A stretch of DNA of 63,926 nucleotides, counting the filler, from Barthelona sp. PAP020 (lineage: Eukaryota): the NCBI GenBank assembly GCA_040182905.1. It is 4 parts of 4 records of this genome, joined end to end, with 100 filler letters (N's around TTAATTAATTAA, not from the genome) between each part and the next. Parts side by side here need not be neighbours in the genome. Positions count along the whole stretch, not along the records: positions 1 to 18,043 come from JARQWU010000233.1; positions 18,144 to 35,931 come from JARQWU010000235.1; positions 36,032 to 53,729 come from JARQWU010000236.1; 1 more part is not named here. One strand, given 5' to 3'. This document shows positions 3,222-50,075 of the stretch, piece after piece; the stretch's first letter is position 1, and every line of letters starts with the position of its first letter. Under the pieces are notes generated by a model that was not told the origin of the DNA, did no database searches, and saw only the letters and a list, made by a program, of their open reading frames with translations. The translations under genes and the position numbers were made by a program.

Positions 3222-3239
3222 TGATGCAGGCAATTTTTG
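3222..3239 (-). promoter_or_regulatory. Upstream motif CAAAAATTGCCTGCATCA
   Basis: The core ends 41 nt before ATG 3183; 17 of 18 nt are identical to 50058-50075. Confidence 0.6.
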
Positions 3240-3402
3240 ATAGATAAAATTGAGTGAGTTTTGATTGTCTTTTATTTTTATCTTTTGTTCTTTGGGTTAT
3301 TATATGAATATAATTGATTAAATTCTTTTTTGAATTTAAGACAAAAAACAAAAAAAAAAAAAAATTGAGGTCTATATTTATAAAAACAAAGAGTTTTCAC
3401 GT

Positions 3403-5126
3403 TTAACTTGCACCAAACTGCATAAGCAAACCAGCAATTTTGACATGTTCTTCCACACAAGCAATATCAAAAGGAGTATCACCGATACGATTTGGGATGT
3501 TGACATTTGCTCCTTTATCCAATAAAAGTTTAACAATTTTTTTAAATCCCAATTTACAAGCTAAAAACAAAGGAGTTTCATTGTTGATATTAACAGAATT
3601 AATATCAGCTCCACGTATTAACAACGTTTTAACAATGTCAAATCTATTGTTTTGAACAGCAACGTATAATGGGGTATAATTAGGAATATTCAATTGTTCA
3701 ATATCTGAGCCATAATTTAAAAATAGATCAACCATTTTGTTATTACCGATTTCACATGCTTTTAATATTGGAGAAGTAACTATATCCCCCTTATCAGTTG
3801 TTGTATATATAATTTCATCATAAGTTGACCTATAATCCATAAGACATTTCATCACGTCATAATAATCACGTGAAGCAGCTTCATATACCATTGATTTACC
3901 ATTATTGGTACTCTTATCAAAATTTTGATCAAAATCATGAGGATCAATACCTGCTTTGATACATACTTTTAGTTTTTCAAGATCTCCTTCAAAAACAGCA
4001 TTTTTGAATTCTTCATTCTTATCTATAGAACTGAAGTTCTCAGAAATTACAACATCATCCATACAATAGATGTCATACAGATACCCATGTAATTTCTTTA
4101 TCTGAGCATCACTGTCAATTTCTGCAGGATCAACATCTACTCCTTCCAGATTTTGCAAAAGATTTTCCAGATACTCATAAATAATAGTAAATGAAGGTCT
4201 TTTTTCTGGATCAGCTTTTAAACAGTGTGTAATTACACCAAATCCTGGTATGGAATTTGTAATATGCTTCGGATATGGTAAAAATCCTTTAGACAATTTT
4301 TCTAAATAATTATCATCATTCTTAAAGGGAGCTTCACCAGTCATCACATATACGTACATAATAGCCCAAAGCCAAACATCAACAGCTTGACCAAGAATAC
4401 GACTCTCTTTGTTCACAACTTCAGGAGGTAAGAACTTGCTTTTATACTCTTCATTCTCATCTCTACACCCAACATCTTTGATATATGGTCTAAATCTAGG
4501 CCCTTTGTCAGTATTACTTATCAACTTAAAGGATATATAAGGTTTAAGATCAACATGGATTAAATTTTCTTTGTAAAGAAATTCCATTGCATAAGCAAGC
4601 TTGTCAAACATAATAATTTTATTTCTAATGCTGAAACGATTGTTGGTCTTTGGAATAGATTTGTTTAGAGTGAATTTTACTCGTTCTTCCACATTAATGG
4701 TGTCTCGGATTAAAGTGTCCCAAGTGTCCATTATTCTGCCCATTTTTTTTTCACTATGTTCAGCAAGTTTATATACACTCAAAGAAAATGGATCATGTAC
4801 AACATTTGGAAAACAATCGCGCTTCAAATCAGCAACACTAAATTCATTGTTGATAATTTTATTCAAAAAAAACACAAGAGTTTCAAGTGAATATCCAATT
4901 TTATCAAATTTACTTTCACTAACAATCGTATGTTCAACAAAACTTTGACCAGAAACAATTGGTTTCTTTTCCCTTTTGAGGAATTTCTTTTCCAACCGTT
5001 TCTTCTTTTCTGATTTTTCAGTTGGAATTTGTGGAATAACAGAAGGATTCTTTTTTTTTGGTGAAGAAATGGTGTTCTTTTTGTTCTTTCTGTCCTTCTT
5101 GTTAATATTGGATCGTTTAACCATAT
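3403..5126 (-). CDS. Degenerate protein kinase domain plus C-terminal ankyrin repeats
   Basis: Kinase motifs HVDLKPY, DVG, PPE, DVWLWA and HCLKADPEKRP, followed by TPLYVAV/TPLFLAC/TPFDIAC ankyrin repeats. Likely start is the ATG of MVKRS. Confidence 0.85.
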
Positions 5127-5318
5127 TTAGTTCATAATGTTTTGGAGAAAAAAAAAATCTTTTACCGTTTCTTTCACTATATCTGACTTTCCTTCTTAGA
5201 TAAATAAAGTCATTAGATTTACCAAAAAAAAAACTCCATAATACATTTATAACATCATATTTCACATGTCTTTAAATTTTGATATGTTTTTTTTCTCATT
5301 ATTTTTTCATCATTTCAA

Positions 5319-47914: not shown

Positions 47915-48064
47915 ACGTTATTACATATTATTCCATGAATAACAAAAAAAAAGAAATGTGTTTGATGAAACAGAAATAATAAAACACACAAAAAATTTAT
48001 CTATTGACAAAAACTATTGGATATAATGAGGACAACATGTTCATTTGATACAATTTCTTACTTT

Positions 48065-49819
48065 TTAAAGAACGGGTACTCTTTTCATTGACCTCTTTGC
48101 ATTATTATCATTTAATCGACTTCTTTCATAGAAATTACCATACCATTGAACTGGATCTTCAAAGACAGGATTAATTGAAGAAGTTAATTGAGTTCCAGCA
48201 TTTTCAGTAATCCAATCCAACTTTGCGGAATCAGAATTTTCAAACTTATCCTTGTATAATTGAACAGTTTGTTCTCTCTGTTCGTTCAGCAAGTTTTTTA
48301 AATATTCCTGACGATTGATAGGCTCCTTTGTACCAAACAAATCTTTTGTTATTTCTTTCAAACTTTTTATTGATACAAAATAACTCAATGCTTTAATATT
48401 CAACCTTCCTTCCTTATAAAGAGAAAAACCAAGGTTATGGTACAAAGAATCAATCATTTGAACTGATAATATAAGACCTTTTTCAGTGACATTGTGTTCC
48501 CAGCCTTCAACTCTCCAAAAGAAATTATCTCGGTTATTAACTAACGTTTTTACATTATGATGAGCTCCTTTATAATTATTCATTGTTTCAAGGGAATAAT
48601 CCGATTGGTCTTGTTCTGTATTGTTCAGAAAATAACCTACCTTTAAAAATTGACGTAATGTAATTGTGTTTTTGGCTACGTTACTATACGTAAAGACAAA
48701 AAAAGGCAAATCACAAACCTCTGGAACATTCCAAGCTAGATTTCTTGTTCTTAATCTTGAAAAATCCAGTTGAGGAAAAACAATGCCAAATCCACGATGG
48801 AAATATTTTTGGAGTCTTAATTCATAGGTTGTTGAACGTCTTGTAGGGTCAATGATATTCAATCCGTACTCATATGCAAACCGACCAAGACTAGTTAAAT
48901 AAACATTATTTCCATCAAAACCTATTGCTGATGCCCCAATATCAAACCCATGCAAAATTTCTGACTTGGTCTTATAGAGTCTCAAAATCAACTGCACAGT
49001 CAAAAATGATGTCATGAATGTGATAGAATTTTTGGTTCTCACTTGTTCAATATAGTCGAGAGAAATCTTTTTTGGACAATCAGGGTAATTCTCTTCAAAG
49101 TTTTCATTCTCAATAACCAATTCAGATTCAAAAATCTTAAAAACCAGTGTTTCATTTAATTCTTGCTTGATATCATTCTTCATATTCAGTAAATTTTTGC
49201 TAAATACAGGCTTCTGTGGTTTTGTGGATGGTTGATTACACATCTCGAGTGTACGTGCAATTTTAGCAGCTTTTCTAGGAACACCTCTCTTTTTAACTCC
49301 TTTTTGTGATGATTCATAATAACCACCACTTTGTTCTTGTGGTATTTCGGGAATCTCATTTGAAACCACATTAGTGGCAATAAGATCAATCAGTCTTTCT
49401 TTCTTTTTATTAATTATCTGTTCTTTTAAATTATTCAACAAAAGGTTGACCATGACATCACCTTCTTTTTCAGTTTCTAAACCATAAAAGAAAATATCAA
49501 CATCAGCTTTCTTAGAATACTGATTGTTTTGTTCATTTCGAACTGTCAAACCAACTGATCCTCCTGCGATAAGCAAATTGTTCATTGGTAATTCTTTCAA
49601 CAAAGGATAAGTTTTATAAAAAGATCTTTTAAACCCTTCCAAATCATTTGTCAGTGTTTTTACTGAATAGACTGAATCACCTTGATCAGGAACTAAAGTG
49701 GGTTTTTCAAAATTCCATTCTTTGATGCATAAGTCGTTTAATTCATGTAAATCATTTGTAACACCAGCATAACGATGTTCTCCATCAATTTGTAAAATAT
49801 TATCAATTGTACTCATCAA
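48065..49819 (-). CDS. Pol-beta-superfamily nucleotidyltransferase-like protein
   Basis: LLIAGGSV...ADVDIFFYGL, VQLILRLY...EILHGFDI, STTYELRLQKYFHRGF. Confidence 0.75.
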   Translation of the reverse strand: MMSTIDNILQIDGEHRYAGVTNDLHELNDLCIKEWNFEKPTLVPDQGDSVYSVKTLTNDLEGFKRSFYKTYPLLKELPMNNLLIAGGSVGLTVRNEQNNQYSKKADVDIFFYGLETEKEGDVMVNLLLNNLKEQIINKKKERLIDLIATNVVSNEIPEIPQEQSGGYYESSQKGVKKRGVPRKAAKIARTLEMCNQPSTKPQKPVFSKNLLNMKNDIKQELNETLVFKIFESELVIENENFEENYPDCPKKISLDYIEQVRTKNSITFMTSFLTVQLILRLYKTKSEILHGFDIGASAIGFDGNNVYLTSLGRFAYEYGLNIIDPTRRSTTYELRLQKYFHRGFGIVFPQLDFSRLRTRNLAWNVPEVCDLPFFVFTYSNVAKNTITLRQFLKVGYFLNNTEQDQSDYSLETMNNYKGAHHNVKTLVNNRDNFFWRVEGWEHNVTEKGLILSVQMIDSLYHNLGFSLYKEGRLNIKALSYFVSIKSLKEITKDLFGTKEPINRQEYLKNLLNEQREQTVQLYKDKFENSDSAKLDWITENAGTQLTSSINPVFEDPVQWYGNFYERSRLNDNNAKRSMKRVPVL

Positions 49820-50057
49820 AAAATCTGTGAAAAAAAGTTACGTTTTCTTTTCTTTGCTTTTCAAATCCTTTTTGTTTATTTTGAAAAACTTTGACACATT
49901 ATCTACAAATTGATAAGTTTGAAAACAGGAAATAAATTAATTTTTTTTTAAAATTTCTTTTATTGTCTGCAAAATCATAAAAGAAATTGTTAAGAACTCA
50001 CAAATGTACTTGAACAACAACGAAAATAACTCTATTATGCAAAGAAAAATCATGAAG

Positions 50058-50075
50058 CAAAAATTGCCTGCACCA
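50058..50075 (+). promoter_or_regulatory. Upstream motif CAAAAATTGCCTGCACCA
   Basis: The core ends 38 nt before ATG 50111. Confidence 0.6.

What the first reader, a model, noticed from the sequence alone, without database searches (positions are those of the whole stretch)
3222..50075. Shared upstream motif TTGCCTGCA marks a candidate meiosis regulon (PCH2, ZYP1-like, new small coiled-coil gene)
Seen in the sequence: TTGCCTGCA lies in sense orientation just upstream of three start codons on three linker-separated pieces. The copies are 3233-3225 (-, 41 nt before ATG 3183), 18494-18502 (30 nt before PCH2) and 50064-50072 (38 nt before ATG 50111). Two copies extend to CAAAAATTGCCTGCAYCA (17/18 identical). 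Two promoters carry a second element between motif and ATG (ATGCACA in PCH2, its complement TGTGCAT in the 3183 gene). A 9-mer with five G/C is expected well under once in this window by rough estimate. I did not see it before RPS15, NOC2, UCK, CCDC40 or SMC5. Other copies are unexplained: 53661 (next to a gap), 60430 (convergent intergenic) and 26743 (in a CDS). Inference: a meiosis-specific cis element, analogous to yeast URS1/MSE, that could be used to fish out unknown meiotic genes.
Basis: partly seen in the sequence, partly recalled or inferred. Interest (0 to 1): 0.88.

Follow-up and report, generated by a model that had tools for sequence, protein, structure and literature searches.

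The report
Candidate meiosis promoter signal in barthelonid
In an anaerobic flagellate from a group never seen to have sex, the same nine-letter DNA word sits 30-41 bases before a known meiotic checkpoint gene and two coiled-coil genes that probably build the chromosome-pairing zipper, so it likely marks genes switched on together for meiosis, though this could not be tested genome-wide.

Summary
TTGCCTGCA occurs 6 times (0.29 expected). It lies in sense orientation 41, 30 and 38 nt before three of 30 start codons; any 9-mer with 4+ G/C does that in 3 of 3000 shuffles. Flanks are unrelated, so it is not a dispersed repeat. The organism is a barthelonid metamonad (one protein is 81% identical to Barthelona sp. 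PAP020), a group with DMC1 but no observed sex. Target 1 is certainly PCH2/TRIP13. Target 2 (88 aa, one intron) is one helix whose only synapsis-related PDB hit is SYCE2, at a non-significant E=2.1. Target 3 (629 aa, two introns) has transverse-filament architecture, but no tool returned ZYP1/SYCP1. Best reading (0.6): a dyad (TGC-CT-GCA) transcription-factor site for meiotic-prophase genes. Against it: two exact non-coding copies precede no visible gene, five of six non-coding TGCCTGCA also lie downstream of a same-strand stop, and PCH2 also acts in mitosis. No genome, reads or close relatives were available, so the decisive test at SPO11/DMC1/HOP1 was not run. The scan's earlier notes hold no such finding.

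The parts
3225..3233 (-). TTGCCTGCA copy, 41 nt before the ATG of the 88-aa gene (and 170 nt after the stop of the kinase-ankyrin gene)
3203..3209 (-). second element TGTGCAT, starting 26 nt before the ATG
2874..3183 (-). 88-aa helical protein gene, inferred intron 3146-3104; candidate SYCE2-like central-element protein (weak)
   Evidence: splice model; single helix, pLDDT 90.6; SYCE2 (6r17_A) E=2.1
18494..18502 (+). TTGCCTGCA copy, 30 nt before the PCH2 ATG (206 nt after an upstream same-strand stop)
18510..18516 (+). second element ATGCACA, starting 23 nt before the ATG
18533..19759 (+). PCH2/TRIP13 AAA+ ATPase, 408 aa, no intron
   Evidence: Pfam TRIP13_N, AAA, AAA_lid_TRIP13_C; best homologues named PCH2
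49963..49971 (+). one-mismatch copy TTGTCTGCA in the same divergent intergenic region as 50064
50064..50072 (+). TTGCCTGCA copy, 38 nt before ATG 50111, in a divergent region, so it cannot be a 3' element of a neighbour
50111..52076 (+). 629-aa protein gene, inferred 38-nt introns 50217-50254 and 50305-50342; short head, ~430-residue helical rod, disordered tail with basic end; candidate transverse filament (ZYP1/SYCP1-like, unproven)
   Evidence: no family hit
53661..53669 (+). TTGCCTGCA copy 180 nt after a same-strand stop and 60 nt before the contig end; may precede a gene lost at the break
60430..60438 (+). TTGCCTGCA copy in a convergent intergenic region, 28 nt after the threonine-dehydratase stop; unexplained
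   Evidence: no credible RNA family
43367..43375 (-). variant ATGCCTGCA, 84 nt after the UDG stop and 290 nt before the next ATG; unexplained
26743..26751 (+). copy inside the LRR gene's reading frame; probably chance

Best explanation
TTGCCTGCA sits 30-41 bases before the start codons of PCH2 and two coiled-coil genes, and is likely the binding site of a transcription factor that would switch on meiotic-prophase genes together in this barthelonid. Shown: the word is over-represented, oriented, tightly placed and not part of a repeat; one target is PCH2/TRIP13. Inferred: the core is a dyad (TGC-CT-GCA) after an A/T tract, so a dimeric factor likely binds it just upstream of the transcription start, perhaps helped by a second TGCA-containing site 23-26 nt before the ATG. 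Also inferred: the 629-aa protein is the transverse filament and the 88-aa protein a SYCE2-like central-element subunit. The three products would then form one module, since ZYP1/SYCP1 recruits PCH2/TRIP13 to the synaptonemal complex in plants and mice. Whether the factor activates in meiosis or represses in growing cells is unknown.
For: Positional enrichment after correcting for word choice: 3 of 3000 shuffles, 0 of 600 and 2 of 400; 3 of 5 exact non-coding copies fall 25-45 nt before a same-strand ATG, binomial P 2.4e-4 with a post-hoc window. The copy at 50064 lies between divergent genes and points at the near ATG. PCH2 is certain. The 88-aa protein's exon 2 gave 5 PDB hits at E<=10 among 177,635 sequences; the 4th was human SYCE2, aligned over 56 residues with one gap. 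Four other coiled-coil queries from the window gave 6, 10, 28 and 2 hits, none a synaptonemal protein. The 629-aa protein has helices over exon-3 residues 2-227 and 237-422, a proline/serine-rich head, and a tail with 4 S/T-P sites whose last 95 residues have pI 9.8. That fits the 'alpha-helical core flanked by unstructured tails' of ZYP1/SYCP1 (PMC9825157, section 13), the paper that shows PCH2 binds ZYP1 and TRIP13 binds SYCP1. From recall only, the rod's start, which straddles intron 1, resembles the N-terminal head-to-head motif that PMC10588951 says SYCP1 and Arabidopsis ZYP1 share (passages). The lineage has DMC1 (PMC12722695, passage).
Against: Only one of three targets is certain, and TRIP13/PCH2 also serves the mitotic spindle checkpoint (established knowledge, recalled). 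The SYCE2 hit is inside the noise range: a bHLH and a phycocyanin scored far better, and control coils get E 0.05-5 hits routinely. No search linked the 629-aa protein to ZYP1/SYCP1. The Atlas's nearest named clusters were CEP135-like and FILIP1L for it and TACC for the small one, all at weak recognition. Two exact non-coding copies (53661, 60430) and the variant at 43367 precede no visible gene. Five of six non-coding TGCCTGCA lie 28-206 nt after a same-strand stop (5 of 31 stops; P about 0.007, post hoc). Three of 30 promoters (10%) would be several hundred genes in a genome of 5,000-6,300 genes (barthelonid counts in PMC11316075 Table 1), large for a core meiotic set, though the sampling range is wide. 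The full-length PCH2 is among 5 of 20 window proteins found letter for letter in EukProt. If that entry is a culture transcriptome, as the named barthelonid entry is, PCH2 is transcribed in ordinary culture.
Confidence: 0.6

Rival explanations
1. The word is the site of a general, orientation-dependent intergenic factor (a boundary, nucleosome-clearing or roadblock-termination factor of the yeast Reb1/Abf1 kind, recalled) or a 3'-end signal, with no special link to meiosis.
For: Five of six non-coding TGCCTGCA lie downstream of a same-strand stop (28, 84, 170, 180, 206 nt). The copy at 60430 is between convergent genes, with no credible gene after it. Six non-coding copies in 64 kb is frequent.
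Against: The 3' distances are scattered while the 5' distances are tight (30-41). Two of the five are counted only because genes are in tandem. The copy at 50064 is in a divergent region. It does not explain why the three promoter copies fall on PCH2 and two orphan coiled-coil genes rather than on any of 27 others.
Confidence: 0.17
2. It is a cell-division (cell-cycle) regulon site like animal CHR/E2F or plant MSA elements (recalled). PCH2/TRIP13 would act as the mitotic checkpoint ATPase, and the coiled-coil proteins would be spindle, centrosome or kinetochore parts.
For: Atlas feature hits: CEP135-like 0.91, Spindly and HMMR 0.88 for the long protein, TACC_C 0.89 for the short one; Pfam Cep57_CLD_2 E 1e-4, below its cut-off. 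PCH2 is present in EukProt. E2F/DP factors control both cell cycle and meiosis in ciliates (PMC13198610, abstract and passages).
Against: The Atlas recognition scores (1550, 1607) are below the level of real family members and the hits disagree with each other. SMC5 and UDG lack the site in their promoters. The SYCE2 hit and the transverse-filament layout point to synapsis.
Confidence: 0.15
3. It marks meiotic genes but acts on RNA: a 5'-UTR (and sometimes 3'-UTR) element read by an RNA-binding protein that silences or stabilises these mRNAs, in the manner of fission-yeast Mmi1/DSR (recalled).
For: All five exact non-coding copies are sense to an adjacent gene, 5' or 3'; transcript ends are unknown.
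Against: The dyad symmetry suits double-stranded DNA binding. Metamonad 5' UTRs are usually shorter than 30-50 nt (recalled). Distances of 170-206 nt after a stop are long for 3' UTRs in so compact a genome (inference).
Confidence: 0.05
4. Chance plus post-hoc selection, or the remnant of a dispersed repeat.
For: On count alone the Bonferroni-corrected P is 0.07; one copy is in coding DNA; the window was chosen from very many.
Against: Family-wise positional test P about 0.001. Flanks share only 15-34 of 80 bases pairwise and do not align. None of the 20 largest repeat families shown covers the sites.
Confidence: 0.03

Closest known systems
Budding-yeast meiotic regulon elements URS1 (Ume6-Ime1) and MSE (Ndt80/Sum1) (recalled)
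   Same: A short cis element shared by meiotic-prophase genes, usable to find new ones
   Different: Unrelated sequence; a TGC-N2-GCA dyad only 30-41 nt from the ATG; no factor known; stage specificity not shown
Ciliate E2F/DP meiotic regulators (E2fl1-DPL2 in Tetrahymena, Tfdp1a/b in Paramecium; PMC13198610, abstract and passages)
   Same: A protist meiotic programme driven by a dedicated transcription factor; a T/A tract followed by a G/C core loosely recalls E2F sites (recalled)
   Different: The core has no CG and is one base longer than the recalled E2F consensus; no binding data
RFX X-box (recalled)
   Same: Dyad with a TTGCC half-site
   Different: Outer G and AC positions do not match; the ciliary gene CCDC40 lacks the site; RFX is not known from metamonads (recalled, not tested)
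ZYP1/SYCP1-PCH2/TRIP13 module with the SYCE2-TEX12 central element (PMC9825157 abstract and section 13; PMC12706140 passages; PMC13693662 section 5)
   Same: The three target genes fit this module in kind and architecture
   Different: Two of three identities are unproven here; the rod (~430 residues) is shorter than that of ZYP1 or SYCP1; a 2014 survey reported only low-scoring ZYP1 similarity in Parabasalia + Fornicata + Heterolobosea (PMC4132317, table passage)

Membership tests
Meiotic regulon cis element (URS1/MSE kind) | Over-represented and positioned upstream of a gene subset | tested here: met
   3 of 30 promoters, 30-41 nt, sense; 3 of 3000 shuffles
Meiotic regulon cis element (URS1/MSE kind) | Target genes are meiosis genes | tested here: inconclusive
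   PCH2 certain but also mitotic; the other two rest on E=2.1 and architecture
Meiotic regulon cis element (URS1/MSE kind) | Enriched at core meiotic genes genome-wide | not testable with these tools
   no genome held; no relative of the window's PCH2 in metagenomes
Meiotic regulon cis element (URS1/MSE kind) | Bound by a stage-specific factor and needed for meiotic induction or vegetative repression | not testable with these tools
   no run listed; needs experiment
PCH2/TRIP13 | TRIP13 N-terminal domain + AAA + TRIP13 lid; nearest named homologues are PCH2 | tested here: met
SYCP1/ZYP1 transverse filament | Long central helical rod between unstructured head and basic unstructured tail | tested here: met
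   (a layout that other rod proteins share)
SYCP1/ZYP1 transverse filament | Conserved N-terminal head-to-head motif (PMC10588951) | tested here: inconclusive
   The region is split by two introns; single exons gave no SYCP1 hit; the resemblance is recalled only
SYCP1/ZYP1 transverse filament | C-terminal part binds the PCH2 N-terminal domain (PMC9825157) | not tested
SYCE2 central-element protein | Sequence similarity to the SYCE2 core helix | tested here: inconclusive
   E=2.1, 4th of 5 hits; no Pfam or Atlas support; fold searches uninformative for one helix
SYCE2 central-element protein | Forms a complex with TEX12 | not testable with these tools
   no TEX12 candidate in the window; no genome
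Dispersed repeat | Homology extends beyond the word | tested here: not met
   longest shared stretch 18 nt in one pair

The most novel reading that the evidence does not exclude
TTGCCTGCA is the master meiotic promoter element of barthelonids. It tags a ZYP1/SYCP1 transverse filament and a SYCE2 central-element subunit in a metamonad, so a genome scan would list the whole synaptonemal complex and other fast-evolving meiotic genes of a lineage with no observed sex. That would push the SYCP1-SYCE2 architecture back across the eukaryotic root and give a reporter for finding the hidden sexual stage.
Probability: 0.4. Interest if true: 0.82.

Novelty: new member of a known kind. Interest (0 to 1): 0.6.

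Why it matters
Synaptonemal-complex proteins diverge too fast for ordinary searches (PMC12706140, passages), and sex in Barthelona has not been observed; DMC1 is the first molecular hint (PMC12722695). A promoter word shared by meiotic genes would identify them by regulation rather than by homology. It would also name candidate transverse-filament and central-element proteins in Metamonada and point to the factor and conditions that trigger meiosis. I found no description of this word as a promoter element, or of a meiotic cis element in metamonads, in searches (20 of 75 listings seen; 15 of 63 listings seen). Most subscription papers are outside that library.

Tried and rejected
No whole genome; no sequencing run was listed. 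Metagenome scan with the window's PCH2: 108 pattern matches, no relative. A PCH2 alignment scan (2 of 64 parts of the collection) kept 80 loci. I examined 5 of them (L002-L006, the top scorers; GC 43-68%, so not close kin); none held TTGCCTGCA. The 18-mer matched 1 viral contig, not followed up. Family searches for the 629-aa protein failed: word-index search, 1.84-billion-protein search (3 hits, unrelated repetitive or coiled-coil proteins), Atlas, PDB by exon. Fold searches of the 76-residue helix were uninformative (0 Foldseek matches; best Z 6.3 among generic helices). Complex prediction (PCH2 N-terminal domain with the rod's C-terminal part) was not available: the queue was full. No Rfam family at gathering score and no tRNA in the window; only chance-level RNA matches near 53661 and 60430. 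A hidden gene after 60430: only a T-rich 46-codon frame, rejected. Reading the reverse complement as a splice site (CAG|G): rejected, as the copies have no matching exons on that strand (inspection). Absence of the 629-aa protein from the protein collection is not evidence of silence, since 15 of 20 other look-ups also missed. Four look-ups of earlier scan notes gave nothing relevant. Supplement search of PMC10588951 found no sequence text; its alignment is a figure I could not see.
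Full report
Observation. The window is four contigs joined by linkers, and the three promoter copies lie on three different contigs, sense, 41, 30 and 38 nt before an ATG. Because the word was chosen after the fact, I tested it family-wise. 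On count alone it is the top non-homopolymer 9-mer under an order-3 model, but only at Bonferroni P 0.07. With position it is solid: in 30 promoters of 100 nt it is the only 9-mer with four or more G/C found in three, and shuffles produce any such word in 3 of 3000 trials. With corrected starts the figures are 0 of 600 for 60-nt windows and 2 of 400 for 150-nt windows. Flanks do not align, so it is not a repeat. The core is a dyad, TGC-CT-GCA, and 7 of the window's 9 TGC-NN-GCA dyads are this word. The second element (ATGCACA/TGTGCAT, 23 and 26 nt before the ATG) is in 2 of 30 promoters, with a chance level of about 2%.

Organism. The DNA is AT-rich, gene-dense and intron-poor. A 1009-aa threonine-dehydratase-like protein has one relative among the candidates scored, 81% identical, named Barthelona sp. 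PAP020. So this is a barthelonid metamonad. PMC12722695 (passages) reports DMC1 in PAP020 as the first molecular evidence of a sexual cycle that has not been observed. PMC13087550 (term search and passages) has no occurrence of 'sex', 'cyst' or 'life cycle'.

Targets. (1) 18533-19759 is PCH2/TRIP13 by three specific Pfam domains and by homologues. (2) 3183-2874(-) becomes an 88-aa frame on removing a 43-nt GT-AG intron (inferred) and is predicted as one helix. Its exon 2 gave 5 PDB hits at E<=10; the fourth is human SYCE2, E=2.1, aligned over 56 residues with one gap. This is not significant alone: two unrelated proteins score better, and control coils give hits in this range. What gives it some weight is that synapsis was the prior hypothesis and four other coil queries (46 hits in all) returned no synaptonemal protein. 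(3) 50111-52076(+) gives 629 aa with two 38-nt introns, the cleanest of 7 two-intron solutions (inferred). It has a short serine/proline-rich head, a helical rod of about 430 residues, and a disordered tail with an acidic block, four S/T-P sites and a basic end. That is the layout described for ZYP1/SYCP1 (PMC9825157, section 13), but other rod proteins share it. SYCP1 and ZYP1 share an N-terminal head-to-head motif (PMC10588951, passages). From recall the start of this rod resembles it in register, but the stretch is split by both introns and no tool confirmed it. The Atlas instead offered centrosome- and spindle-type neighbours at weak recognition.

Mechanism. Most likely a dimeric DNA-binding factor recognises the dyad just upstream of the transcription start and co-regulates meiotic-prophase genes. 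The three products would form a known functional module, as the transverse filament recruits PCH2/TRIP13 in Arabidopsis and mouse (PMC9825157, abstract and section 13) and SYCE2 builds the central element (PMC12706140, passages; PMC13693662, section 5). Shown: enrichment, position, orientation, non-repeat nature, PCH2. Inferred: the splice models, the two synapsis identities, binding by a factor, meiotic timing.

Against. Copies at 53661 and 60430, and the variant at 43367, precede no visible gene. The first is 60 nt from a contig end and 180 nt after a same-strand stop, the same spacing as the two tandem promoter copies (170, 206 nt), so a lost gene is plausible. The second is in a convergent region and stays unexplained. 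Five of six non-coding TGCCTGCA lie after a same-strand stop (P about 0.007), against 3 of 6 tightly before a start (P about 0.0005); both windows are post hoc. The two informative regions split one each: divergent 50064 favours a 5' role, convergent 60430 a 3' or boundary role. A rate of 3 in 30 promoters would be large for a core meiotic set if typical (barthelonids have 5,064-6,305 predicted genes; PMC11316075, table passage). PCH2 also works in mitosis (recalled). It is one of 5 of 20 window proteins present exactly in EukProt, which would mean expression in culture if that entry is a transcriptome; I could not tell.

What could not be done. The test that would decide the matter, enrichment at SPO11/DMC1/HOP1/MND1 versus mitotic genes, remains open.

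Comparison and novelty. It works like URS1/MSE (recalled) if the inference holds, but shares no sequence with them. Resemblances to E2F sites and the RFX X-box are partial and recalled; CCDC40 lacks the site. Protist meiotic transcription factors are known in ciliates (PMC13198610, abstract and passages). Searches (listings only, except where passages are cited) showed no description of this word or of a metamonad meiotic promoter element. Verdict: a real promoter-proximal element, a new member of a known kind; meiotic regulon at about 0.6; interest 0.6.

Noticed in passing
window 53661-53729 and 60430-60474 (+): Both unexplained copies are followed by a long T run and then a run of 5-6 G. Only 4 of the window's 17 G/C runs of five or more are non-coding, and one of these ends a contig. 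This may be a shared small element.
   Followed up: partly
window 48065-49816 (-): 583-aa orphan with a nucleotidyltransferase-like signature that recalls giant-virus proteins (recalled); no Pfam, PHROG or viral-contig hit. It shares the divergent promoter region with the 629-aa gene.
   Followed up: partly
window 57373-60402 (+): Threonine-dehydratase-like protein of 1009 aa, about twice the usual size, with Pfam PALP only in the second half; the only near-length relative found is in Barthelona PAP020. Possibly a lineage-specific internal duplication.
   Followed up: partly
window 23893-24552 (-): A protein-like frame interrupted by two in-frame stops inside an 1.8-kb gap between genes; probably a pseudogene or decayed mobile element; no Pfam family, one weak PHROG hit.
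   Followed up: partly
window 52060-53481 (+): 473-aa frame without a Pfam hit whose N-terminal half recalls the splicing factor PRP17/CDC40 (recalled); its first ATG overlaps the stop of the 629-aa gene by 17 nt.
   Followed up: no
window 28830-29297 (-): RPS15 has a 5' intron (true ATG at 29297) and seems to lack the usual C-terminal tail of eukaryotic S15 (recalled).
   Followed up: no
window 20119-23427, 29417-29773, 61199-63151: RAB3GAP2-like, KxDL (BORC) and FAM91 trafficking genes are retained in this compact metamonad genome.
   Followed up: no
window 1111-1195: Short 9-nt-period tandem repeat inside the MYND gene.
   Followed up: no
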